From the sequence record MK295204: a DNA stretch of 64,000 nucleotides. One strand, written 5' to 3'. Shown here in pieces: positions 8,808 through 58,497 of this stretch. How positions within the stretch are numbered: position 1 is the first letter of the stretch; each line of letters begins with the position of its first letter. A program made the translations under genes and the position numbers. The stretch is from Shigella phage vB_SdyM_006. Below the pieces are notes generated by a model, which did no database searches, was not told the DNA's origin, and worked only from the letters and a program-made list of their open reading frames with translations.

Positions 8808-9371
8808 TTAGAAAAAATCATCTAATGTAAACTCTTTATATCCTATCATTTCTTTGAATTCGCACATCACTATTGGGTTATATAAATTATAAGTCTTTAT
8901 CCCTAAATAACGTGCTAGATAAACAGCTGTTCTTGTCCCTCCAGAAACATTCCCATATTTATCCTCAGGTGCCCAAAATATAACTGAATCAACAGGATTT
9001 TCTAAAGTAGGTGTTAATATTTGCATACAATTTCTACATTGAAGATGTTTAACAGTTTTAGAAACACTGTCTAATTTAGGATAAAATCTTCTTATAATAT
9101 TAGCGGCTTTTTCTTGGATTTCGTCATTAAAGTCTGTAAATATATGAACACCATTCCCAGAATAGTGATTATTGAACCCCTGGTGAGGAATAATAACACA
9201 TTTATTTTCAGATGAGTATTTCTTCATAAACAAATAATCACTCCCAGGCGCTCCTCCTGATGTTCCTAGCACTCCTAAATTAGAAATATATTCTCCACCA
9301 CTTATTAAAATATTAGATAAACGACTTGGTATTTTTCTTGACCCTATTAAAGCTACAGAATTTTTAACCAT
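8808..9371 (-). CDS. SLOG/DprA-like Rossmann-fold protein
   Basis: N-terminal pattern LIGSRKIPS...GTSGGAPGSD and C-terminal GGTRTAVYLARYLGIKTYNL resemble the DprA/LOG/YpsA (SLOG) glycine-rich nucleotide-binding loops; motif-level call only. Confidence 0.45.
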   Translation of the reverse strand: MVKNSVALIGSRKIPSRLSNILISGGEYISNLGVLGTSGGAPGSDYLFMKKYSSENKCVIIPHQGFNNHYSGNGVHIFTDFNDEIQEKAANIIRRFYPKLDSVSKTVKHLQCRNCMQILTPTLENPVDSVIFWAPEDKYGNVSGGTRTAVYLARYLGIKTYNLYNPIVMCEFKEMIGYKEFTLDDFF

Positions 9372-9380
9372 GCTAACCTC

Positions 9381-9400
9381 AAAAAGGACCCGAAGGTCCT
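9381..9400 (-). terminator. hairpin terminator 14 nt upstream of SLOG-like gene start
   Basis: AGGACC-CGAA-GGTCCT with T-run on minus strand. Confidence 0.55.
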
Positions 9401-9405
9401 TTAAT

Positions 9406-9561
9406 TTATTGTAAAGCTAAAATTAAACCCACAATAATAAACCATAACACAAACCCAATCCATAATGGTGATAACACCCATAGCCAAGACCAAGCAATGA
9501 CACCAACTAGTTTTAAAACAATAAACACAATACCTAGTACACCCAAAAATCCAATTTTCAT
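9406..9561 (-). CDS. small hydrophobic protein, 51 aa, likely membrane-embedded
   Basis: My own translation: MKIGFLGVLGIVFIVLKLVGVIAWSWLWVLSPLWIGFVLWFIIVGLILALQ; start 2 nt after upstream gene stop; followed by a hairpin terminator; below the ORF-track length cutoff. Confidence 0.35.
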   Translation of the reverse strand: MKIGFLGVLGIVFIVLKLVGVIAWSWLWVLSPLWIGFVLWFIIVGLILALQ

Positions 9562-9562
9562 A

Positions 9563-9808
9563 TTACCAACCTGTTATTTGTATTATATTAGAATCAAATT
9601 GGGTTCTTTTAACAGTTAACCCTTCGTTTTGTAATTTTGTAATAACTTTCTCTTGGACTCGGTATGAGATTTCACCTAGAGTCCAAGTTAAACTATCATA
9701 CCCATGTTTAGATTTAAGCATTAATCGCTTTGCAATATCATTAAACACCTGTTTAGATTCAAGCTCAACTAAGCTATCTTTAGAATCTTTTAATTTATCA
9801 ATAAACAT
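9563..9808 (-). CDS. hypothetical protein
   Basis: 81 aa ORF tightly packed downstream of rnlB. Confidence 0.4.
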   Translation of the reverse strand: MFIDKLKDSKDSLVELESKQVFNDIAKRLMLKSKHGYDSLTWTLGEISYRVQEKVITKLQNEGLTVKRTQFDSNIIQITGW

Positions 9809-9815
9809 AATAAAC

Positions 9816-10820
9816 CTATTTTGTAATTAAATTGACCCAATCTTTTCGAATGAATTCTTGTATTTCTTTTTGAATAGATTTCTTGATTAATGCTGGGTCA
9901 TCGTAATCAAGAATATCATGCCCGTCTTTTAACATATCTTTTAAAACATCCTGCATCATTAGACCTTGAACTTTGCCAAAATCTTTTGAAGATATTTCGC
10001 CAACATGGCTAATCACATTAGATAAACGTTGTGCAGTGATATATGATGTAGAAAAATTAACCAGTTCTTGGTCGTCATTTGATAATTCTGGTGTAGGTCT
10101 AATTGTTTTTACTTTACCAGTTTCTTTGAACTTAGCATTTTTACATTTAAAAATTACACGGCTTTTATTATTGAACTGTGTTGGAGTAATAGGTTTAAGA
10201 ACATAACCTTCTGCAATATTTTCTGAACCTTCTTTTTGAGGACCAAATACGTGGGCATTTGCAGCCGGAATACCATGTTCTTTTACTATTGCATTAAATT
10301 CTGGGATTAAAGAATCAAATGAACGCTCTAAATTACTTAATTCATCAAAGTCACCAGTTAAAATAACAGGGCAGATTTTAAGATTTGTTTTAGAAGATAA
10401 CATTCTTAAAAATAAAGCATCTACTAAATCACCATTAATTAAAATATCAAATACCCAGAAATCTTTTTCTTCGTAATCTACTTCTCGTTGAATACCAGGG
10501 CCTGCATATTCGCCAAAGACTGTTAAAAGTTCTAAGTCAGGCATTGATTCTTTAACAGTATTAAACATGTCAAGAATGTTTTGTTTATAACGCTTTAAGA
10601 TTAATTCGTATCCAAAAAATGCTTCAGATTCACCAATAAGATTAGTTCGTTTTGCACAAACAACATCTACACCATCACAAATAAAACTAAAATTAGTCCC
10701 ATGTATTTTTTCTTGGGCAATCCAAGGAATACCTGGTGCTGTTTTTCCTTCAAAAAAGGCCTTTTCTACTAATTTAGTGTTATCAATATTTTCAATAGAA
10801 TCATATTTAATAAATTGCAT
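9816..10820 (-). CDS. rnlB: RNA ligase 2
   Basis: 334 aa; nucleotidyltransferase lysine motif KIHGTN, plus blocks GYVLKP and KCKN-KF and GKVQGLMMQDVL matching T4 Rnl2. Confidence 0.9.
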   Translation of the reverse strand: MQFIKYDSIENIDNTKLVEKAFFEGKTAPGIPWIAQEKIHGTNFSFICDGVDVVCAKRTNLIGESEAFFGYELILKRYKQNILDMFNTVKESMPDLELLTVFGEYAGPGIQREVDYEEKDFWVFDILINGDLVDALFLRMLSSKTNLKICPVILTGDFDELSNLERSFDSLIPEFNAIVKEHGIPAANAHVFGPQKEGSENIAEGYVLKPITPTQFNNKSRVIFKCKNAKFKETGKVKTIRPTPELSNDDQELVNFSTSYITAQRLSNVISHVGEISSKDFGKVQGLMMQDVLKDMLKDGHDILDYDDPALIKKSIQKEIQEFIRKDWVNLITK

Positions 10821-11156
10821 TTATACCTCAAACAATCGTATTTTAAGACTAGTTGTATATTTGATTTCTAAATTATAAACTTTACCACTATAAACAACAA
10901 GAATTTTATTTGGGTTTTCTTCACACCACATTATATTATCGTCATTAATAATGTTTAAAAATTCTAGCTCTGAATAACAAGCCCACGAGAATGATTTACT
11001 TAAAAACTCTTTTAAATCAAGCCAATCGGTTTCGTCACAAATAGCAGGACTCATAACAGCAAGTTTGTGGGTATATGTTTCTTTATCACACCAACGAGTA
11101 AAAAACACTTCACGTTTTTCTTCTAAAGGAATAACACCAGCAGTATACCAAGACAT
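10821..11156 (-). CDS. hypothetical protein (paralogue of next gene)
   Basis: C-terminal NKILVVYSGKVYNLEIKYT aligns with NSILVLYIGESTQLEVKFT of 11166..11450. Confidence 0.4.
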   Translation of the reverse strand: MSWYTAGVIPLEEKREVFFTRWCDKETYTHKLAVMSPAICDETDWLDLKEFLSKSFSWACYSELEFLNIINDDNIMWCEENPNKILVVYSGKVYNLEIKYTTSLKIRLFEV

Positions 11157-11165
11157 AATAATTCC

Positions 11166-11450
11166 TTATTTGATTGGGATGATTCTAAATTTGTATTCAC
11201 CGCCACGAGTAAATTTAACTTCTAACTGAGTTGATTCACCAATGTAAAGAACCAAAATTGAATTTTTATTAGAACGTAACCAGTCTTGATATTCTTCAAA
11301 AGACTTGCGTAAAGATGGGATGCTATTTTTATATCGGCCTAAAATAGTCCATGAGAATTCACCACTGCCCATCCATTTAGTGGAACGGTCATATTTTAAA
11401 AGGTTTTCAATATCAATATTTAACCATGTTTTAAAGTTTTCTTTAATCAT
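11166..11450 (-). CDS. hypothetical protein (paralogue of previous gene)
   Basis: 94 aa; shared C-terminal motif with 10821..11156. Confidence 0.4.
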   Translation of the reverse strand: MIKENFKTWLNIDIENLLKYDRSTKWMGSGEFSWTILGRYKNSIPSLRKSFEEYQDWLRSNKNSILVLYIGESTQLEVKFTRGGEYKFRIIPIK

Positions 11451-11650
11451 TTTCTTACCTTCATTCGTTTACGATAAACTACTTTTTCGCGAGTTTTAAA
11501 TTCCTTCTGTTTTTGTTCAACTTCAATATAAACAGAAGCCATTTCTTTAGCTGTTCCACCCATTTTTCTGGCTATATCAACAAAGTGCATACCTTGTTGT
11601 TTAAGAAAGTGGATTTTTATTTTATCATGATTTGTCATTATTTTCTTCAA
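11447..11650 (-). CDS. hypothetical small basic protein
   Basis: 67 aa ORF; 4-nt overlap with downstream gene. Confidence 0.35.
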   Translation of the reverse strand: MKKIMTNHDKIKIHFLKQQGMHFVDIARKMGGTAKEMASVYIEVEQKQKEFKTREKVVYRKRMKVRK

Positions 11651-11831
11651 AATCTTTACAGATATCCAAGAGTTTTTTGTTTAAAGCTTCAACAAATTCT
11701 GTAGCTGAATCAGGGTATTCGTTAAATAAATAACACAAATACTCACTATGTATTTCATGGGCCACTTGAGAAACCATAGTCTTAAGTTCTTTATTCATAT
11801 AATCACCTCTCAATAATGTGTATTCTATCAT
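11625..11831 (-). CDS. hypothetical protein
   Basis: 68 aa ORF; overlaps both neighbours by about 26-29 nt, so the true start may be internal. Confidence 0.3.
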   Translation of the reverse strand: MIEYTLLRGDYMNKELKTMVSQVAHEIHSEYLCYLFNEYPDSATEFVEALNKKLLDICKDFEENNDKS

Positions 11832-12237
11832 CTAAAATATCATTAAGCATAGGACCAATGACATCCCAATTTAAGCCACCATTAGAACACCCTGGTTTAG
11901 GCAGGAGAACTCTTTTAAAATTGTTATTAGATACTATCTCCATTAATTCTAATGCACTCTTACGTATCAGGTCTTTATCAGACTTGTTATACCAATCATG
12001 TTTAGTAGGAAATGATATTAAATTAATGTTATTATATTTCGTAAGAATTCTGCATACATGGCCGTATTGGATTAAGGATTTAGCCATGATTAAGTCTAAA
12101 TTAGGAACCTTCAACGAAAAGAGACGGGCAATTCCGGCTCCCATAACAGCTCTTTTATTTTTCTTGATATTCATGTTTGTTGTAATGCAAATAGCATCAC
12201 AAGGGATATCAAGAATATTTCCAGATACTATTTTCAT
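11803..12237 (-). CDS. macro-domain protein (ADP-ribose binding/hydrolase fold)
   Basis: 144 aa; N-terminal GNILD-x4-DAICITTN and glycine loop AVMGAGIA, C-terminal LLPKPGCSNGGL, resemble macro-domain signature loops. Confidence 0.55.
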   Translation of the reverse strand: MKIVSGNILDIPCDAICITTNMNIKKNKRAVMGAGIARLFSLKVPNLDLIMAKSLIQYGHVCRILTKYNNINLISFPTKHDWYNKSDKDLIRKSALELMEIVSNNNFKRVLLPKPGCSNGGLNWDVIGPMLNDILDDRIHIIER

Positions 12238-12656
12238 AAAGCTTCTTTTAAAACTTCTATAGCATGCTTAATTTCAAAAGGGATACCTTCTGATGGATGC
12301 TGGCGAATGTTATCGTCAATATGACTAAAATCCATGCCAATTACACGGACTTTATATTTTTGCTCACTATCAAATTCTGATATATTAGAACCCCAAGTGT
12401 TTGATGATGTAACTTCTTTAGTCTCAAAATAAGTACATCCACAATGACAATATTCGTGCCAAAAATCACAGTCTTTATCAAATAAAGGGTGGTCTTCGCG
12501 AAGAGTTAAATATACCGCATAACTCCAATCCGGACGACCATCATTAAATAAAGCTTTATAACTAGGTGGTAATCCTGTAAACCATGAAGTAACTTCAATA
12601 GCTTCGCCTTTCTTTTTATCTGCATGAACAGTGTATACATATTTTTGAATAGACAT
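12234..12656 (-). CDS. hypothetical protein with His/Cys cluster
   Basis: 140 aa; contains WHEYCHCGC (HExxH-like plus Cys cluster); start overlaps stop region of downstream macro gene by 4 nt. Confidence 0.45.
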   Translation of the reverse strand: MSIQKYVYTVHADKKKGEAIEVTSWFTGLPPSYKALFNDGRPDWSYAVYLTLREDHPLFDKDCDFWHEYCHCGCTYFETKEVTSSNTWGSNISEFDSEQKYKVRVIGMDFSHIDDNIRQHPSEGIPFEIKHAIEVLKEAL

Positions 12657-12854
12657 TTATTTTACCTCAATAATAGTGAGTTCAGTATCTTCTGTCAAAT
12701 CACAAAAGTCAAAAGCCAATGCAGCAATACCTGGGTATTCTGATTCGTCAATAATACATTCAGTATTATTATTTTTGATGTCTAAGGCTAATTGATAATT
12801 AGACGTAGTAAATCCAAGTTCAAGTTCTTCGCACCATACGGTATACTTTTTCAT
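12657..12854 (-). CDS. small protein, tandem paralogue A
   Basis: 65 aa; aligns along its length with 12855..13049 (VWCEE, GF-T--YQLA, C-terminal IEVK). Confidence 0.45.
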   Translation of the reverse strand: MKKYTVWCEELELGFTTSNYQLALDIKNNNTECIIDESEYPGIAALAFDFCDLTEDTELTIIEVK

Positions 12855-13049
12855 TTATTTTACCTCAATGAGTTCACAATCGTATAAACAACTACACAGT
12901 TCACAAAAAGAATAAGCCGATGCATATGAATCAGTGTCTATCCAAAACCCAAGATTATCAATAGCACCTTTACGAACTTCATAAGCAAGTTGATAATCAA
13001 CTGTTTCAAATCCAATTTTCTTTTCTTCGCACCATACTATATATTTCAT
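12855..13049 (-). CDS. small protein, tandem paralogue B
   Basis: 64 aa; paralogue of 12657..12854. Confidence 0.45.
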   Translation of the reverse strand: MKYIVWCEEKKIGFETVDYQLAYEVRKGAIDNLGFWIDTDSYASAYSFCELCSCLYDCELIEVK

Positions 13050-13894
13050 GAGTATTCCTTGTCATAATAAGAATCTGGAGTAAAAATATTTAACATATTT
13101 GTAGAATTATCAATAGTAATAATATTTTCCTGTTCAACTTCAGGTGTATAATATTTTAAAAACTCTTCTTTAACGTATTTTACTGGATCACTTTTATAAT
13201 CGTCAGTAGAAATATCAAATAATTCAATTGTATACGTATCAAGCCATTTTTCAGAACATGTTAATCGTCCACATAATAATCCATCATAAACGATAGCATA
13301 TTCAATATGGCCCCATTTATATGAGCTATCAGCGTCGTGTCTGATTAGATAAAACTTAATATCAGAATTCTCACAATCATCACTAATATTGTCACGAACA
13401 TCGTATTCATTGAGCTCGGTCAATTCACTTAAAGCATTAATAAACAGGTTTTTATATTGAGGGCCAGTTACTAACTTATCTTCTGTTAGTTCTTTCTCAA
13501 TAAATTCTTTTAAAGTTAAAACTGGCAATTCATACTTAGGAAATAATGCAGTTTCAGTAATAGTGCCGATATTCAATTCGGCCAATTTCTTAATAACAGA
13601 ATCTTCAGCTTTATCAGAATCAGTCCAAATATGAAGAACTTTAAAATTATGATTATTCCAAATTTTTTGTGGGTCAACATCAATCACATCTTGGGTTTTA
13701 GACAAAAACATTAAAAGGTAATCAGAATCATTCCACCCTACTGGGTTTTCGTATTTTTGAATGACTAGATATTGGAAATCAGTCATTAATGCATTATATC
13801 TTTCTTTAGAAGCTAAAGAAGTAGAATCCATAGATGAAGAAAAAGCTTCAATAACACTAGCTGGGTTTTTAATTAACATTTTGAATAGTCCCAT
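13046..13894 (-). CDS. hypothetical protein
   Basis: 282 aa ORF, no recognisable motif. Confidence 0.5.
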   Translation of the reverse strand: MGLFKMLIKNPASVIEAFSSSMDSTSLASKERYNALMTDFQYLVIQKYENPVGWNDSDYLLMFLSKTQDVIDVDPQKIWNNHNFKVLHIWTDSDKAEDSVIKKLAELNIGTITETALFPKYELPVLTLKEFIEKELTEDKLVTGPQYKNLFINALSELTELNEYDVRDNISDDCENSDIKFYLIRHDADSSYKWGHIEYAIVYDGLLCGRLTCSEKWLDTYTIELFDISTDDYKSDPVKYVKEEFLKYYTPEVEQENIITIDNSTNMLNIFTPDSYYDKEYS

Positions 13895-14115
13895 GTGATT
13901 TTAACACGATCATGATATATTACTCTATCATGGCTTTTTGAAACTGTAAATCCTTTTTCTTTAAGAATTTCAATCAACGCATCTTTAATGGCTTCATTTT
14001 CTGGAAGCTTTGCGTAATGCTCTGTACTATCATGCAAAGCCAGTTGGCAAATATCATTTAACACAATAGCTAAATTGTGTTCAACAACAGTATTTTTAAG
14101 ATCAGATAAATTCAT
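13873..14115 (-). CDS. hypothetical protein
   Basis: 80 aa ORF, first gene downstream of a putative minus-strand early promoter. Confidence 0.4.
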   Translation of the reverse strand: MNLSDLKNTVVEHNLAIVLNDICQLALHDSTEHYAKLPENEAIKDALIEILKEKGFTVSKSHDRVIYHDRVKITWDYSKC

Positions 14116-14149
14116 ATTATTCTCACAGTTGCGAATTGATGATGTGTAT

Positions 14150-14177
14150 ACTATATTATAAAATAGTGTTTGTAAAC
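14150..14177 (-). promoter_or_regulatory. putative divergent early promoter (GTTTAC-N16-TATAGT)
   Basis: GTTTAC on minus strand (plus 14172-14177) with TATAGT 16 nt downstream; weaker match. Confidence 0.3.
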
Positions 14178-14200
14178 ATCTAAAATAATTTAAAATAAAT

Positions 14201-14229
14201 GTTTACTTTTGCTGTCATTATGATATTAT
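14201..14229 (+). promoter_or_regulatory. T4-type early promoter (GTTTAC-N17-TATTAT)
   Basis: -35 GTTTAC 14201-14206, 17-nt spacer, -10 TATTAT 14224-14229; part of a conserved cassette. Confidence 0.6.
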
Positions 14230-14271
14230 ATACATATTGAAACGAAACATGAAAAACAAATGGAGTATATT

Positions 14272-14616
14272 ATGAATAAGACACAAATCAATGCAGTTTT
14301 AAAAACTTTAGGTTATGGTAATTTACGTTATTCTAATGGTAAAACATACCGCAGAGGAAACTCTATGGTTAAAGGTTTTCATTTAATTTCTACTGGTGCA
14401 TGTATGGTGACTTCACCAGAAACACAAAAATTTAGTGATCTTGTTAATGAGTTAAAACAACATTTTGAATTACAATCATATTATGACAATTGCATGGCAA
14501 TATTTGTGACAGGAAAATTAAAAATTGTTGTTTGTTTAACAAATTTTAATACATACGGTGGCTTAAACCCAGATTATAAAACATGGTTTGCATCTGTTAA
14601 TATTGAAAAGTTATAA
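14272..14616 (+). CDS. hypothetical protein, lone plus-strand gene in an accessory island
   Basis: Start placed at the second ATG, preceded by GGAGTATAT as in two other copies of the same promoter-leader cassette; own early promoter upstream and bidirectional terminator downstream. Confidence 0.5.
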   Translation: MNKTQINAVLKTLGYGNLRYSNGKTYRRGNSMVKGFHLISTGACMVTSPETQKFSDLVNELKQHFELQSYYDNCMAIFVTGKLKIVVCLTNFNTYGGLNPDYKTWFASVNIEKL

Positions 14617-14620
14617 AACA

Positions 14621-14645
14621 AAAATGGGACCGTAAGGTCCCATTT
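14621..14645. terminator. bidirectional terminator between plus-strand island gene and gene 54
   Basis: TGGGACC-GTAA-GGTCCCA flanked by A-run and T-run. Confidence 0.7.
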
Positions 14646-15560
14646 TCAAATTAATCTTGTTACAGCTCCTATTCCTCCTCCAGCACCACCTAATCTTGTT
14701 AAATTTCTTAATGAAGAGCTTAAAGAGTTTTCTTCTGAAATTGTATCTATGGCACCAATTGCTTTTGATTCTAACCAATCAAGAGCTGCTTGCCTACCGA
14801 CAGAACCTACCTGCATCACCCTGTATGCGAATGTAACATCAAAAACAGCAATAGTATTATTATCTTCATATGAAAGTTCAGGAGCACCTACCGACATAGG
14901 AACACACCCTGTGAACATGGCAACAGTATGTGGAAGACCGTTTCTATTGTGTAAATTAACCTGGATATCGGCTTCAACATCTATAGGTAAAGCACGTAGT
15001 CCTGTGATTGGGTCTTCAACTGAATTCACCCAATCTTGCATAGCTCGATAATTACTTGCTTCTGAATCCATCCTAAACGAAATTATCAACGGGTCATATT
15101 CTCTAGATAGAACTTTTATATTAGGTGAATTATGATTTTTATCCATCTCATAAGATAGTCTGTTTTCTGGTAATTTGACAGAATAAACCATTAACCCAGA
15201 TGTTGGAAATGCCATATTAAAGAAATCTAATAGATAAGTCCCTACTTCAAATTCTCCTAATAATGATTGAACCACACGATTAGACATGGCTCCTAAAAGA
15301 TATTTAGAAACACCAGATTTTCTCACTAGTTTTTGAGTACCAGCAACAACTAGACTTGATACTGCACTAGTTACATCATTTTGAGATATTCCAAGAAAAT
15401 CTGTATCTATAGGTAAATTGTTAAACAAAAAACCACCAAAATTATCTAAAAGCTCATTAGTTTTTGATGATGGGGCTGTGGCAAAAACAACACTAAACAT
15501 GTTTGTTCTTTGGAAGTCAAGATTGACAGCTTGGCTTTTAAATTCTTCTAATGTATACAT
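14646..15560 (-). CDS. 54: baseplate tail-tube junction protein
   Basis: 304 aa; last gene of the 51-27-28-29-48-54 hub series, matching T4 order and length (320 aa). Confidence 0.75.
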   Translation of the reverse strand: MYTLEEFKSQAVNLDFQRTNMFSVVFATAPSSKTNELLDNFGGFLFNNLPIDTDFLGISQNDVTSAVSSLVVAGTQKLVRKSGVSKYLLGAMSNRVVQSLLGEFEVGTYLLDFFNMAFPTSGLMVYSVKLPENRLSYEMDKNHNSPNIKVLSREYDPLIISFRMDSEASNYRAMQDWVNSVEDPITGLRALPIDVEADIQVNLHNRNGLPHTVAMFTGCVPMSVGAPELSYEDNNTIAVFDVTFAYRVMQVGSVGRQAALDWLESKAIGAIDTISEENSLSSSLRNLTRLGGAGGGIGAVTRLI

Positions 15561-26419: not shown

Positions 26420-28483
26420 TTAAATAATAAATTTTTCTGGGACAAAAGTAAGATCAACAGCTGTTGATAATAATTCTAGCCCTTTTTGACTAATTTTACC
26501 AGTATTTTCTTTTAAGAATTCTTTAAACCCAATTTTTTCGATTTTTCCTTCAGATAAAAACTTATTTCCGTCAATAAGTTCGCTTTCATCTAGTAATTCT
26601 GGATCCACTACAGATGTTTCTACTAATATTGGTCTATTAAATTCTATATCACGAGCGTTTTCATAACCGTGGATAGAATGAATCTTAAGAGCTAAACCTC
26701 TAGGTAAAATCACCTCGCATTCACTAGAGTATTTTGACATATTACCAGGAATAATAACATTGACTTTATGTGCACCTTTAATAGTTATACCCATAGAAAT
26801 GTTAATATCTGTTTTCTTAGTTGCTTTCTTACCATTAACGGCTACACCAATATTTTTTGGTGTCATAACTGTTGATATAACATCATCGAATGTTTCGGAT
26901 TCAAAAGTTACTGTAGTCGCGTTAGGTTTAATATTATCAAGAACATCATTTCGTTCCCCAAAAATAATTGGAGCTAATGAAGTCGAAATATAATTAGGAA
27001 AATATAATGTTTTATTTTTAGCAGCTTTTTCTACGTCGGCATAAGGTAATTTTTGTGCTCTATATAAAATAGTTCCTTTTTCTAACTTGGTTCCTTTTTT
27101 GAAGGCCCCATCTAAGACAGGAATTTTGTTTTCATACACAGATTTTAAACTTTTATCTTTACCAAGCAAAAAGTCGTTCATTTCTTCATATCCACGTAAA
27201 GCATAATCTGTGATAACTTTTCGCTCTTCTTCTGTTAAATCCATTTCTGTTTCGGTTCTAAATAACTCTTCTAAAGGAGTATAGAAAACATTTCTGTTTA
27301 AAGCAGAGATACAGCCTCTTAAAGCTCTAGTCTTAGCCACATTATCGTCAGGTCCATATGTTTCTAAATCTTCGGCTATTTTTTTGTAAACATCCATAGC
27401 ATTATTAGAAGTTTTGAGCGCATTGTTAATTATCAATATATACGGTTTTGCTAATTTATATTTTTCTTCACTAGATAAATGATAAAAATTTTCAACACCA
27501 TACCCAGATATGCGTTCTAAAGAATCTAATAAAAATCTAGCTTCTAGATCTGATTCTTCTTCACTCACGGCCGAATTTATTTTATCTAAAAACACAGATT
27601 TAGATTCATCAATTTTATTAAGGACATTTTTATGAACTAATGCAATTTTTGTAGAATCACTTTGGACAATAGGAGGATTATCTTGTAGTTCAATATATTT
27701 TCTTCTTCCTTCTTCAGAATAATTTTCTAAGTCTTCTGGTTTAGAAACACCATACATTGCTGATAATAATTCACGTCTAGAAACTTTAGTTTTTGAAATG
27801 ACAGATCGTTCACTTCTTGTGTTTTCTTGTGCTGCAATACTTCCTGCAATGGCTTCTAATTTAGACACTTGCTTGCCAGTTTTGTCATTGATATACACAT
27901 CACCTACTTTAGAATCGACTTTAGTATATAAGTCAGAATCAATACCAGGAATCCCAGCGATGTCTTCTAAAGGTCTGTTTTTACGATATATTAAAACATA
28001 AGCATGTTTACCTGTAAATTGATACAAATCTTCTAAGACAACAAATTTACCACCAGTACGTTGCATAGCCAGACGTTTGATTATTCTTTGTAATGTCTTT
28101 TCTTGGCCTTTCATTTTTTTAGCAGGGAATCTAAATAAAACTGCGTCCATTTTAAGTTTTTTAACTTGTTCGTATACAGTGTCAAAAATAGTATTCAATG
28201 CCCCAATAGGGTCTGAGCCTAAACCATTTCTTAATTCTGCTGCATTACCATTTTTAGACAAACTCATCAAAAACACTTGAACAAATTTATCACCTTGCTT
28301 TACTGCTTTTAATGCATCGCCTTTAGATAAATAAGACACCATTCTAACTAAAAGATTGTCATTTCCAGGAACACTGACATTCCATAATTGAGGGACCTTA
28401 GCCCTTTTATTAAGATTAATAGCTTTATATTGAGCTATTTCTGAATCAAAAACCTCATTTAAATTAATTTCATTTAATTCCAT
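26420..28483 (-). CDS. alt: Alt-like ADP-ribosyltransferase (packaged, R-S-ExE class)
   Basis: 687 aa vs 682 in T4; ART triad in order: LYRAQ (Arg), ISTSL (Ser-Thr-Ser), ECEVILPRG (Glu-x-Glu); TATAAATA late promoter upstream. Confidence 0.8.
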   Translation of the reverse strand: MELNEINLNEVFDSEIAQYKAINLNKRAKVPQLWNVSVPGNDNLLVRMVSYLSKGDALKAVKQGDKFVQVFLMSLSKNGNAAELRNGLGSDPIGALNTIFDTVYEQVKKLKMDAVLFRFPAKKMKGQEKTLQRIIKRLAMQRTGGKFVVLEDLYQFTGKHAYVLIYRKNRPLEDIAGIPGIDSDLYTKVDSKVGDVYINDKTGKQVSKLEAIAGSIAAQENTRSERSVISKTKVSRRELLSAMYGVSKPEDLENYSEEGRRKYIELQDNPPIVQSDSTKIALVHKNVLNKIDESKSVFLDKINSAVSEEESDLEARFLLDSLERISGYGVENFYHLSSEEKYKLAKPYILIINNALKTSNNAMDVYKKIAEDLETYGPDDNVAKTRALRGCISALNRNVFYTPLEELFRTETEMDLTEEERKVITDYALRGYEEMNDFLLGKDKSLKSVYENKIPVLDGAFKKGTKLEKGTILYRAQKLPYADVEKAAKNKTLYFPNYISTSLAPIIFGERNDVLDNIKPNATTVTFESETFDDVISTVMTPKNIGVAVNGKKATKKTDINISMGITIKGAHKVNVIIPGNMSKYSSECEVILPRGLALKIHSIHGYENARDIEFNRPILVETSVVDPELLDESELIDGNKFLSEGKIEKIGFKEFLKENTGKISQKGLELLSTAVDLTFVPEKFII

Positions 28484-32338: not shown

Positions 32339-32659
32339 TTAGGACCTTATTTTTAAGATTGTTTTCATTGCAGCAACTAATGGTTTTTTATCCTCAACCC
32401 AGTCATCACAACATAAATTTTCATTATCGAAATTATTGTATCTAGAACCTAGACAATGTAAACCGATAAATGTATCATTTGATGTTTTTGTTACACTGAT
32501 ATCATGGTCTAACATTAAGACCCAAGCTTGATTAATATTATTACATGGATCAAATTTTAAGCCATTAATATAAACAAATAACTTAAACCCTTGGTTTTCT
32601 ACTGTGTATTCATACCCAAGACTTTTAGCTAGTTCAATATTAATATCAAGTTCAGTCAT
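32339..32659 (-). CDS. hypothetical protein
   Basis: 106 aa ORF with FDPCNN motif; 4-nt overlap with upstream NADAR-like gene. Confidence 0.45.
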   Translation of the reverse strand: MTELDINIELAKSLGYEYTVENQGFKLFVYINGLKFDPCNNINQAWVLMLDHDISVTKTSNDTFIGLHCLGSRYNNFDNENLCCDDWVEDKKPLVAAMKTILKIRS

Positions 32660-33093
32660 AACCGTCTCCTTAAAGATGTCAATATACCACAGAATTCTTG
32701 GTTTGTTAATATAGTTTCGAACTTATTTTCGCATCCTATAGTATGAACTAATGTTTTATCGCCTGTTGCTCTCAGAGCATCTCTGAATGATTTATTCTGA
32801 TTAAACATATGAATATATGCTCTGACTAGTAAACGTTTGTAGGCTTCACTGTGACGATTAATAGGGCATCCATTATACCACATAGTGTCATTTTTCATTT
32901 TAGGACCAGCTAATTTGGCCTTTAATCCATGCAGTTTAAACACTTCAGATTGTTCTTTAGGGTCTTTAATTTTTAATCCTTGTAAAAATCCTTCTATACT
33001 GCCAAAGAGCTGATTGTCCATTTTAAAAGGATGCTCAGCAAAATTACTTAAAGCACATGAAGGCCAAGGGCCTCTAGAATGAATATCAATCAT
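32656..33093 (-). CDS. NADAR-like (YbiA-type) putative ADP-ribose glycohydrolase
   Basis: 145 aa; LSNFAEHPFKMDNQLFGSIEGFLQGLKI aligns with the YbiA core FSNFA-x-PI-x-DG-x3-TSEHYFQAQKF. Confidence 0.55.
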   Translation of the reverse strand: MIDIHSRGPWPSCALSNFAEHPFKMDNQLFGSIEGFLQGLKIKDPKEQSEVFKLHGLKAKLAGPKMKNDTMWYNGCPINRHSEAYKRLLVRAYIHMFNQNKSFRDALRATGDKTLVHTIGCENKFETILTNQEFCGILTSLRRRL

Positions 33094-57386: not shown

Positions 57387-58497
57387 TATAATGGTTGAAT
57401 TCGGCCAAGATTATGTAGGTGCTCAAACGTTTGCAGAGAACAATGCACTTACATATAAGTTAACTATTAAGGCTAGTAATAAAAACACACAGGGTGAATC
57501 CTGTGTGTTAATTAACGATAATCAAATAACAACTGAATGCGATACTGGTATTAATGTTTGGGTCATTAATAATATAGGTAAACTTGATAATACTATGTGT
57601 TTTGATGTATCAACAGAATCTGGTATAACAGCATTTATAACATTTTTGAAAGAACAAACTTCTGGAATAATTTGTTTAGCTTCATCTAACGAATTAGATT
57701 CAACTCAAGTCTTAGCTGATTATATGAAATCTATAGGTTCTGCTTCATGGAATAATTTTATGATTTCTAAAATCAAAACAGTGTCTTATGCAGCAGTCTA
57801 TCGTCCAGAATTAAAATCCATTGTTCTGGAATCTATACAATATTCTGATGGAATTAAAGAAGATGAATTACTTGAGTTAGAAACCATTTTTGATTCTAAT
57901 AATTCTATAGGAATAACAGGATTTCCTGGTTCAATCGTATATGATTATAAAGAATACACGTCAATTGAACAAGATTATAAAAAATGGCCTACTAATCTTT
58001 TAAATAACAAGCTTTCTGATTATGGTCTTAAACCTGGCGATTGGGTTTCTTTGAGTGCTTCTATATTTGGAGATAAAGAATTAAAAGATGACGGTGGATG
58101 GACTAGAATAGATTGTAGATGGGTATTTGGTAATGCATGGAAACAATCATTTTATTTAGAAAGTACATTGAAAGGGAATTATCCTGTTCAGTCTATGGTT
58201 AATCCTGGTATCTGGGAATCTAAAACAGTTTATTCTCAAATACCAGAAGGTGTAGATGGATTTGTTATAATAGCTTCAAGATATAATTCAGACTTAGGCC
58301 ATTCTGCTGTAAAAAATGTTGCATTCGGAAGAGCTGCAGAACCTATAATAGAAAAATCTGATAGACAAATAGGTATAAATGGTATTAGAAATTCTTTTGT
58401 AAAAGAGGAAGAACAAAAAGTAGGATCGTTATTAAGTTTGTTAAATCTTAAAGACAAATCCGACACAGTTTCTTCTATAAACTTTAAAGAAATATAG
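57379..58497 (+). CDS. 35: long tail fibre hinge protein
   Basis: 372 aa, same length as T4 gp35; overlaps gp34 stop by 8 nt. Confidence 0.75.
   Translation: MSNIMVEFGQDYVGAQTFAENNALTYKLTIKASNKNTQGESCVLINDNQITTECDTGINVWVINNIGKLDNTMCFDVSTESGITAFITFLKEQTSGIICLASSNELDSTQVLADYMKSIGSASWNNFMISKIKTVSYAAVYRPELKSIVLESIQYSDGIKEDELLELETIFDSNNSIGITGFPGSIVYDYKEYTSIEQDYKKWPTNLLNNKLSDYGLKPGDWVSLSASIFGDKELKDDGGWTRIDCRWVFGNAWKQSFYLESTLKGNYPVQSMVNPGIWESKTVYSQIPEGVDGFVIIASRYNSDLGHSAVKNVAFGRAAEPIIEKSDRQIGINGIRNSFVKEEEQKVGSLLSLLNLKDKSDTVSSINFKEI

What the first reader, a model, noticed from the sequence alone, without database searches (positions are those of the whole stretch)
11803..12656. Macro-domain protein co-transcribed with a His/Cys-cluster partner
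The 144-aa protein has macro-domain-like loops (GNILD...DAICITTN, AVMGAGIA, PKPGCSNGGL). Its upstream neighbour overlaps it by 4 nt and carries WHEYCHCGC, a possible metal site. Macro domains remove ADP-ribose from proteins or nucleic acids; in a phage this suggests reversal of host ADP-ribosylation-based defence (for example DarT-type DNA modification) or control of the phage's own Alt transferase. The pair sits in an accessory island absent from T4.
Basis: partly seen in the sequence, partly recalled or inferred. Interest (0 to 1): 0.6.

Follow-up and report, generated by a model that had tools for sequence, protein, structure and literature searches.

The report
Phage orphan DarG-like macrodomain gene
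A T4-like Proteus phage carries a stand-alone copy of the ADP-ribose-removing domain of the bacterial DarG antitoxin, most likely to strip off the ADP-ribose that the host DarT defence toxin puts on phage DNA; this trick is already shown in other phages, and the neighbouring gene is probably an unrelated protein of unknown function.

Summary
Two minus-strand genes, 11803-12237 (144 aa) and 12234-12656 (140 aa), overlap by ATGA, and all quoted motifs are present.

The 144-aa protein is a high-confidence macrodomain of the DarG/TARG1 class. The model has pLDDT 96.4, and the best solved matches are DarG macrodomains. It is 32-37% identical to DarT-adjacent bacterial DarG2 macrodomains and 29% identical to PhiKZ gp104 (AdfM), a proven anti-DarTG2 enzyme. 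It keeps the catalytic Lys (K79), the catalytic Asn (N21) and the DarG-specific Trp (W82). It lacks DarG's C-terminal domain and has no darT neighbour, so it is an orphan antitoxin-like counter-defence gene.

The "partner" reading is not supported. The 140-aa protein belongs to an uncharacterised, largely phage-borne family (108 cluster representatives). Its distant relatives sit without a macrodomain nearby, and close macrodomain relatives sit without it. The cysteines of WHEYCHCGC are lineage-specific. What the family conserves is a His/Asp set: H56, H71, D109, H112, D115.

T4 is not without a macrodomain. It has a distant, non-orthologous one, Tk.4 (also named AdfM), which this phage lineage lacks.

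Verdict: new member of a known kind, modest interest.

The parts
11803..12237 (-). Gene for a 144-aa stand-alone DarG-type macrodomain (AdfM-like orphan antitoxin). Key residues: N7, T19, N21, 31-VMGAGIA-37, 76-FPTK-79, W82, 116-GCSNGG-121.
   Evidence: ORF. NCBIfam DarG 6.2e-18 over positions 2-138. PADLOC DarG 1.5e-18. Best PDB hits are the Thermus aquaticus and M. tuberculosis DarG macrodomains. AF2 pLDDT 96.4. Foldseek TM 0.80-0.82 to DarG macrodomains. 29% identity to PhiKZ AdfM. 32-37% identity to DarT-adjacent DarG2. dN/dS 0.15.
12234..12656 (-). Gene for a 140-aa uncharacterised alpha/beta protein (PHROG 20299). It carries WHEYCHCGC at residues 66-74. The family-conserved residues are H56, H71, G73, D109, H112 and D115.
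12234..12237 (-). ATGA stop/start overlap between the upstream gene and the macro gene. It is compatible with translational coupling.
   Evidence: Sequence. The same overlap is kept in phage PM2.
14148..14184 (-). Sigma-70/T4-early-like promoter candidates (TTTAGA-18-TATAAT and GTTTACA-17-TAGTAT). They head the minus-strand cluster, about 14115 down to about 9406, that contains both genes.
   Evidence: Consensus scan and sequence. No TATAAATA late-promoter box anywhere in 9300-14700. No terminator-like site inside the cluster on the minus strand. This is inference only: the number of promoter-like sites does not exceed the shuffles.

Best explanation
The 144-aa protein is an orphan, antitoxin-like ADP-ribosylglycohydrolase of the DarG macrodomain type. 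It is the same kind as PhiKZ AdfM.

Proposed mechanism: it is expressed from an early-type transcription unit. It binds ADP-ribose through its two glycine-rich loops (VMGAGIA and GCSNGG). Using K79, with N21 and W82 positioning the modified base, it cleaves ADP-ribose off thymidines that a host DarT2 toxin has attached to single-stranded phage DNA. This restores phage replication and packaging in DarTG2-carrying Proteus strains.

The upstream 140-aa gene is a separate accessory gene of an uncharacterised family with a conserved His/Asp site. It is not an obligate partner of the macrodomain.

What is shown here: the fold, the family placement, the conservation of catalytic residues, the orphan status and the lack of general gene linkage. 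What is inferred: the substrate (thymidine-linked ADP-ribose on DNA), the biological role and the expression timing.
For: Family placement:
- DarG-specific profiles outscore generic macro profiles. NCBIfam DarG scores 65 bits against 22 bits for the next family. PADLOC DarG scores 65 bits. Pfam Macro scores 21.5 bits.
- The best solved relatives by sequence are the DarG macrodomains 5m31 and 5m3i and the DarT-DarG fusion 7omu, ahead of TARG1.
- The AF2 model has pLDDT 96.4. Its top Foldseek hits are DarG macrodomains (E 4e-11, TM 0.82), followed by TARG1.
- It is 32-37% identical to four bacterial macrodomain proteins encoded directly after darT, and it shares their FPTKxxW and GxxNGGL motifs.

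Catalytic residues:
- N7, T19, N21, T78, K79, W82, G116, N119 and G120 align with the TaqDarG ADP-ribose ligands and with catalytic K80, N22 and W83 (alignment; residues named in PMC5179494).
- N21, K79, G116 and G120 are invariant in 55 homologues.

Link to a tested homologue:
- PhiKZ gp104 (AdfM) is 29% identical, E 2e-16, and has the same best PHROG, 335.
- gp104 removes DarT2-made ADP-ribose from DNA in vitro, rescues DarT2 toxicity and is needed for growth on DarTG2 hosts (PMC13309987).

Orphan status:
- The protein ends where DarG's C-terminal domain begins.
- No DarT is detectable in the window or in phiP4-3 positions 5000-167849.

Context:
- The same window carries a gp30.3/AdfN homologue, the T4 anti-DarTG1 enzyme (PMC11825919).
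- darT-darG is reported, rarely, in Morganella morganii, the host of sister phages that carry the same gene (PMC13227991).

Independence from the neighbour.
Against: - No biochemical or genetic test was done for this protein. Macrodomains of this class can also act on protein- or RNA-linked ADP-ribose, and sequence alone does not fix the substrate (a point made in PMC9503650).
- Identity to the tested AdfM is only 29%.
- Taq K29 and G119, whose mutation lowers DarG activity, are Ala and Ser here, although active PhiKZ AdfM also has Ala at both positions.
- I did not show that Proteus strains carry DarTG2. A plasmid search with DarT2 listed no Proteus among the top organisms.
- The two genes keep their ATGA overlap or adjacency across Bragavirus and Gualtarvirus, so some lineage-specific cooperation is not excluded.
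Confidence: 0.6

Rival explanations
1. The macrodomain is an active ADP-ribose hydrolase but its natural substrate is not DarT2-modified DNA. Candidates are ADP-ribosylated host or phage proteins (Glu/Asp-linked), ADP-ribosylated RNA from other toxin or defence transferases, or small ADP-ribose derivatives such as O-acetyl-ADP-ribose, ADP-ribose-1''-phosphate or immune signals.
For: PHROG 335 and RefSeq annotate the family as 'phosphatase' or 'ADP-ribose binding protein'. TARG1, a protein de-ADP-ribosylase, and Poa1p, an ADP-ribose-1''-phosphate phosphatase, are also fold matches. The gene sits four genes from RNA ligase 2. A survey of viral NAD/ADP-ribose systems argues that phage macrodomains may favour soluble derivatives (PMC9503650). 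Enzymes that reverse RNA ADP-ribosylation are an active topic (PMC11833690, abstract seen).
Against: DarG profiles and structures beat TARG1, Poa1p and MacroD-type matches by a wide margin. The DarG-specific Trp (W82; Ala in TARG1) is present, and the TARG1 Asp125 position is Gly as in DarG. Both experimentally tested phage macrodomains act against DarTG2. From established knowledge, T4-type Pnkp/Rnl RNA repair does not produce ADP-ribose-1''-phosphate.
Confidence: 0.25
2. The two overlapping genes form a two-component counter-defence module. The 140-aa protein binds and blocks the toxin, like DarG's C-terminal domain or AdfA/AdfB, or supplies a metal-dependent step, while the macrodomain erases the modification.
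Confidence: 0.1
3. The macrodomain tempers or reverses ADP-ribosylation made by the phage's own Alt-like transferase.
For: An Alt-like ADP-ribosyltransferase is encoded in the same window at 26420-28483 (Pfam ADPrib_exo_Tox, 1.7e-14).
Against: Alt is about 14 kb away, in another transcription context. By established knowledge Alt-type enzymes modify arginine, and reversing that linkage needs ARH/DraG-type hydrolases, not DarG/TARG1-type macrodomains. This macro family also occurs in many phages of unrelated types.
Confidence: 0.03

Closest known systems
AdfM of Pseudomonas phage PhiKZ (gp104), anti-DarT factor macro (Morgan et al., Cell Rep 2026, PMC13309987)
   Same: Stand-alone phage macrodomain of about 145-160 aa. 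29% identity, E 2e-16. Same best PHROG, 335. Shares the VMGAG loop, FPTKxxW, GCxNGGL and the catalytic Asn (N23 in gp104, N21 here). Both are closest to bacterial DarG2 macrodomains.
   Different: This one sits in a T4-like Straboviridae phage with no phage nucleus, so no nuclear import is involved. It has a 6-residue insertion (MNIKKN) after the catalytic Asn and lacks gp104's insertion before the last glycine loop. It is untested.
DarG2 antitoxin of DarTG2 toxin-antitoxin systems (Thermus aquaticus and M. tuberculosis DarG; PDB 5m31, 5m3e, 5m3i)
   Same: Macrodomain with catalytic Lys, Asn and base-stacking Trp. Best sequence and fold matches. 32-37% identity to DarT-adjacent DarG2 from plasmids.
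   Different: No C-terminal DarT-binding domain, no adjacent darT, and 65 bits against the 250-bit NCBIfam cut-off. It is phage-encoded.
T4 Tk.4, also named AdfM (HIDEN-SEQ preprint, 10.1101/2025.11.20.689424)
   Same: Stand-alone macrodomain in a T4-type phage. Its loss sensitises T4 to DarTG2.
   Different: Only 23% identity and 25 bits to the window protein. It has LYTQ instead of FPTK, so it lacks the catalytic Lys motif. It sits at a different locus, next to vs. The syntenic slot in phiP4-3 holds an unrelated ORF, and no Tk.4 homologue was found in positions 5000-167849 of that genome.
Human TARG1/OARD1 (PDB 4j5q/r/s)
   Same: Same macrodomain subclass, with the catalytic Lys at the equivalent position.
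   Different: The TARG1 Asp125 position is Gly here. TARG1 has Ala where this protein and DarG have Trp. Similarity is weaker, 16 bits.
AdfN (T4 gp30.3), NADAR-type orphan antitoxin against DarTG1 (PMC11825919)
   Same: The same strategy: a phage carries an orphan copy of the antitoxin's hydrolase domain. A homologue is present in this same window.
   Different: Unrelated fold (NADAR). It acts on guanosine-linked ADP-ribose made by DarT1.

Membership tests
Macrodomain superfamily | Three-layer alpha/beta/alpha macro fold with a mixed central sheet | tested here: met
   AF2 pLDDT 96.4, pTM 0.90. 173 PDB matches at E<=1e-3, and the 50 listed are macrodomains or proteins engineered from a macrodomain scaffold; TM 0.82 to 5m3e.
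Macrodomain superfamily | Glycine-rich ADP-ribose/diphosphate-binding loops | tested here: met
   31-VMGAGIA-37 and 116-GCSNGG-121 align with the TaqDarG ligand residues V31, G117, N120 and G121. G33, G35, G116 and G120 are invariant in 55 homologues.
Macrodomain superfamily | Score at or above the Pfam PF01661 gathering cut-off | tested here: not met
   21.5 bits against a 22-bit cut-off, E 2.4e-4. This is a narrow miss by a generic model and is outweighed by the DarG-specific profiles and the fold.
DarG2 antitoxin (NCBIfam NF048014 equivalog) | N-terminal macrodomain with catalytic Lys (TaqDarG K80) plus the N22 and W83 equivalents | tested here: met
   K79, N21 and W82 align with them.
DarG2 antitoxin (NCBIfam NF048014 equivalog) | C-terminal DarT-binding domain (full length about 340-370 aa) | tested here: not met
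   The protein ends at residue 144, where the DarG C-terminal domain starts. It matches only positions 2-138 of the 338-position model and scores 65 bits against a 250-bit cut-off.
DarG2 antitoxin (NCBIfam NF048014 equivalog) | Encoded next to a darT (DUF4433) toxin gene | tested here: not met
   No DarT by tblastn or by a 5-sequence HMM in the window or in phiP4-3 positions 5000-167849.
AdfM, PhiKZ gp104 type (orphan phage DarG-like macrodomain) | Stand-alone macrodomain encoded by a phage and homologous to gp104 | tested here: met
   29% identity, E 2e-16. Both have best PHROG 335 and second PHROG 30914. PhiKZ-like phages appear among the tblastn hits.
AdfM, PhiKZ gp104 type (orphan phage DarG-like macrodomain) | Conserved catalytic Asn (gp104 N23) | tested here: met
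   N21 aligns with N23 and is invariant in 55 homologues.
AdfM, PhiKZ gp104 type (orphan phage DarG-like macrodomain) | Removes DarT2-made ADP-ribose from ssDNA and protects the phage from DarTG2 | not testable with these tools
   Needs biochemistry and phage genetics.
AdfM, T4 Tk.4 type | Orthology to T4 Tk.4 (sequence and position next to vs) | tested here: not met
   25 bits and 23% identity. The vs-adjacent ORF of phiP4-3 is unrelated. No Tk.4 homologue was found in the window or in positions 5000-167849 of the phiP4-3 genome.
TARG1-type protein glycohydrolase | Catalytic Lys plus Asp (TARG1 D125) dyad | tested here: not met
   The Lys is present (K79), but by my hand alignment of the TARG1 loop, with the TARG1 sequence recalled from memory, the Asp position falls in the 119-NGG-121 loop, at a Gly as in DarG (DarG loop from the alignment; D125 role). 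TARG1 scores only 16 bits.
   Across 65 representatives: H67 4, C70 2, C72 9, C74 32. The conserved residues are instead H56 59, H71 54, D109 63, H112 63 and D115 61. A His/Asp metal or active site remains possible but was not tested.

The most novel reading that the evidence does not exclude
The 140-aa neighbour and its roughly 108-cluster, mostly metagenomic phage family are a new small His/Asp-dependent enzyme or metal-binding anti-defence factor. In the Proteus/Morganella/Providencia T4-like lineage it would have been recruited to work with the orphan macrodomain, for example by binding DarT2 or by processing the released product. That would give a split, two-gene analogue of the two-domain DarG.
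Probability: 0.08. Interest if true: 0.6.

Novelty: new member of a known kind. Interest (0 to 1): 0.3.

Why it matters
It adds a Straboviridae (Bragavirus/Gualtarvirus) example to the recently defined class of orphan-antitoxin counter-defences. This T4-like lineage apparently lacks T4's own macrodomain factor Tk.4 and instead carries the DarG/PhiKZ-type enzyme at another locus, alongside an AdfN homologue. That pattern suggests non-orthologous replacement and layered anti-DarTG protection. In practice it predicts that these Proteus phages, which are candidates for therapy, should resist DarTG2-carrying hosts. It also corrects the RefSeq annotation of phiP4-3, which misses the gene. The neighbour defines an uncharacterised phage protein family with a conserved His/Asp site that may deserve its own study.

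Tried and rejected
Rejected hypotheses:
- Orthology to T4 Tk.4/AdfM: only 25 bits, a different locus, and no Tk.4 homologue in phiP4-3.
- 'Split DarG': hhalign of the neighbour family against four DarG C-terminal domains gives probability 0.4%.
- Pseudogenisation in phiP4-3, which its truncated annotation suggested: the ORF is intact at 99.3% identity.

Searches that found nothing useful:
- Sequence searches for the neighbour in Pfam, NCBIfam, PADLOC and PDB, including all 65 family members and a profile: nothing significant.
- tblastn of a typical distant family member (P0164) against isolated phages: no match.
- A viral-contig scan with the close family alignment returned only the three known isolates.
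- A DarT2 search of plasmids to look for Proteus DarTG2: no Proteus among the organisms listed, so uninformative.

Weak or unavailable results:
- The AlphaFold-database fold library was not available.
- The search for related loci with the broad family alignment failed because no stretch was conserved enough.
- The sigma-70-like site directly upstream of the neighbour gene (12698-12670, 11 of 12 matches) was not adopted as an internal promoter. Promoter-like sites are no more frequent than in shuffles (36 against 31.6 +/- 5.9), and the site would leave almost no leader.

Full report
**Where the window comes from.** The window is from a T4-like Proteus phage of the genus Bragavirus (Straboviridae). 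Positions 11000-14200 are 95.6% identical to Proteus phage phiP4-3, and parts are 81-85% identical to PM2, Pm5461 and SJ_PmiM. The finding lies in a block of about 14 short, tightly packed minus-strand genes, from about 14115 down to about 9406. This block sits between the capsid vertex gene and the gp54/gp48 tail-tube genes, and it also contains RNA ligase 2 and a DprA-like gene.

**Checking the observation.** Both ORFs are on the minus strand. The macro ORF is 11803-12237 (144 aa) and the upstream ORF is 12234-12656 (140 aa). Both are genuine genes. They are conserved in seven Proteus-phage database records, covering four Bragavirus phages, and at 46-54% identity in Morganella and Providencia T4-like phages. 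Against PM2, dN/dS is 0.15 and 0.18. The RefSeq annotation of phiP4-3 shows only a 141-nt CDS here, but the full 144-codon frame is intact at 99.3% identity, so that is an annotation gap and not a pseudogene.

**The 144-aa protein is a DarG-type macrodomain.**
- The generic Pfam Macro model only just misses its cut-off, 21.5 against 22 bits.
- DarG-specific profiles score far higher. NCBIfam DarG gives 65 bits (E 6e-18), covering model positions 2-138 of 338. PADLOC DarG gives 65 bits.
- Against solved structures, the best sequence matches are the macrodomains of Thermus aquaticus and M. tuberculosis DarG and the Thermosipho DarT-DarG fusion, ahead of human TARG1.
- An AlphaFold2 model built on 55 homologues has pLDDT 96.4. 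Its best Foldseek matches are the same DarG macrodomains (E 4e-11, TM 0.82), followed by TARG1.
- I extracted four bacterial macrodomain proteins encoded immediately after darT on plasmids. The window protein is 32-37% identical to their N-terminal domains and stops exactly where their roughly 190-residue C-terminal domain begins.

**Catalytic residues are in place.** Jankevicius et al. list the ADP-ribose ligands of TaqDarG. They show that K80 is essential, that N22 is the next most important residue, and that W83 is placed to stack on the modified thymine, where TARG1 has Ala. In the HMMER alignment these map to N7, T19, N21, T78, K79, W82, G116, N119 and G120 of the window protein. N21, K79, G116 and G120 are invariant across 55 homologues. 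By my hand alignment of the TARG1 loop, with the TARG1 sequence recalled from memory, its second catalytic residue Asp125 corresponds to a Gly here, as in DarG. Two positions whose mutation weakens TaqDarG (K29, G119) are Ala and Ser here, but the active PhiKZ enzyme also has Ala at both.

**What is already known about phage macrodomains.**
- Morgan et al. (Cell Rep 2026) showed that PhiKZ gp104, which they named AdfM, is a DarG2-like macrodomain. It removes DarT2-made ADP-ribose from DNA, neutralises DarT2 toxicity and is required on DarTG2 hosts.
- The window protein is 29% identical to gp104 (E 2e-16) and falls in the same PHROG. PhiKZ-like phages are among its 173 tblastn hits in isolated phages.
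- A preprint independently found that T4 gene tk.4, also a macrodomain and also named AdfM, is T4's anti-DarTG2 factor.
- I retrieved Tk.4. It is only 23% identical (25 bits) to the window protein and has LYTQ where DarG, gp104 and the window protein have FPTK.
- In phiP4-3 the slot next to vs holds an unrelated 146-aa ORF, and no Tk.4 homologue is detectable in the window or in positions 5000-167849 of that genome.
- So this lineage appears to have a DarG/PhiKZ-type enzyme at a different locus instead of the Tk.4 type.
- No DarT is encoded in the window or in that genome, so the macrodomain is an orphan.
- The window also has a clear gp30.3/AdfN homologue (Pfam Phage_30_3, 1e-42), the NADAR enzyme T4 uses against DarTG1. 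It also has an Alt-like transferase about 14 kb away.

**The 140-aa neighbour.** It matches PHROG 20299 (function unknown) and nothing in Pfam, NCBIfam, PADLOC or PDB. In isolated phages it occurs only in 12 records of the Proteus/Morganella/Providencia T4-like lineage, always next to the macro gene.

An exhaustive profile search found 108 cluster representatives, mostly stand-alone proteins of 115-170 aa. None has an informative Pfam hit, and the family profile has no PDB hit.

The family instead conserves H56 (59), H71 (54), G73 (64), D109 (63), H112 (63) and D115 (61).

In the AF2 model (pLDDT 80.7) these residues fall at the end of strand 3, the start of strand 4, and the end of strand 5 with the loop after it. 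From the topology I infer that they lie at one edge of the sheet, which would fit a metal or active site. I could not inspect the coordinates.

**Are the two genes a functional pair?** The linkage does not extend beyond the one related lineage.
- Four independent loci carrying distant family members have no macrodomain in the 1-6 kb of flank that was available, judged by an HMM of the macro family.
- One of these is a syntenic T4-like fragment. There the homologue is followed directly by the DUF2774-like gene, a small gene and RNA ligase 2, which is the window's gene order without the macro gene and the 57-aa ORF that follows it.
- Conversely, three independent loci with the closest outside macro homologues (44-47% identity) have no member of the neighbour family within 5 kb.
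- About 160 phage database records carry the macro gene without the neighbour.
- A profile comparison with DarG C-terminal domains is negative, at probability 0.4%.
- The ATGA overlap is compatible with translational coupling, but stop/start overlaps are common throughout this block.
- The block starts after sigma-70/T4-early-like promoter matches at 14184-14148. It has no late-promoter box and no internal minus-strand terminator. The two genes are therefore probably co-transcribed with a dozen others. This is an inference from consensus scans that do not exceed the shuffles.

**Conclusion.** The best-supported reading is that the 144-aa protein is an orphan DarG-type ADP-ribosylglycohydrolase. 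It most likely removes DarT2-made ADP-ribose from phage DNA, which makes it a new member of the AdfM kind in a T4-like Proteus phage. The substrate and the role are inferred from homology and conserved catalytic residues, not shown. The main rival is a different ADP-ribose substrate. The neighbour is best treated as an independent accessory gene of an uncharacterised family with a conserved His/Asp site; a lineage-specific cooperation with the macrodomain is not excluded but has no support beyond adjacency. Reports of rare darT-darG in Morganella morganii fit the ecology. I did not show that DarTG2 occurs in Proteus.

Noticed in passing
window 32656-33093 (-): 145-aa homologue of T4 gp30.3/AdfN (Pfam Phage_30_3 1.2e-42, NADAR 9.6e-6), the orphan NADAR antitoxin that T4 uses against DarTG1. 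The phage therefore seems to carry hydrolases against both DarT types.
   Followed up: partly
window 26420-28483 (-): 687-aa Alt-like ADP-ribosyltransferase (Pfam ADPrib_exo_Tox 1.7e-14), about 14 kb from the macro gene.
   Followed up: partly
L001 12802-13233 (phiP4-3 record 57528-57959): RefSeq and GenBank annotate only a 141-nt CDS (gp092) and leave a gap, although the full 144-codon macro ORF is intact and 99.3% identical. This is an annotation error in the public record.
   Followed up: yes
L018 41051-41491 (phiP4-3 gp238, outside the window): The slot next to vs, where T4 has tk.4 (its macrodomain AdfM), holds an unrelated 146-aa ORF. No Tk.4 homologue was found in phiP4-3 positions 5000-167849.
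   Followed up: partly
window 12657-12854 and 12855-13049 (-): Two adjacent small ORFs (65 and 64 aa) both match PHROG 21221. They look like a tandem duplication just upstream of the 140-aa gene. Function unknown.
   Followed up: no
window 10821-11156 and 11166-11450 (-): Adjacent 111-aa and 94-aa ORFs cross-hit each other's PHROGs (18468 and 19888). A single 112-aa gene in the syntenic metagenomic locus L006 matches both, which suggests another tandem duplication.
   Followed up: no
window about 12534: Nucleotide-level (megablast) similarity to PM2 and Pm5461 runs from about 11064 and stops inside the 140-aa gene at about 12534. The 140-aa protein is much more diverged (69-70% identity) than the macro protein (85%). 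This may be a mosaic or recombination boundary.
   Followed up: no
window 12243-12263 (residue 132 of the 140-aa protein): A position that is Asp in 59 of 65 family representatives is Ala in the window protein, and Asn or Cys in its close relatives. This is a lineage-specific loss of an otherwise conserved acidic residue.
   Followed up: no
window 9383-9402 and 14619-14648: Two GC-rich hairpins with T-runs. One is a perfect palindrome (AAAGGACCCGAAGGTCCTTT) at the low end of the minus-strand block. The other is a 13-bp stem right after the gp54-like gene. They are likely terminators bounding the accessory block.
   Followed up: no
window 11625-11831 (-): The mechanical 68-aa ORF that overlaps the macro gene's end probably starts at the internal ATG at 11798, giving 57 aa with GAGG upstream. 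That is what PHROG 24549 and the phiP4-3 annotation cover, so there is a 4-nt gap after the macro stop rather than an overlap.
   Followed up: partly
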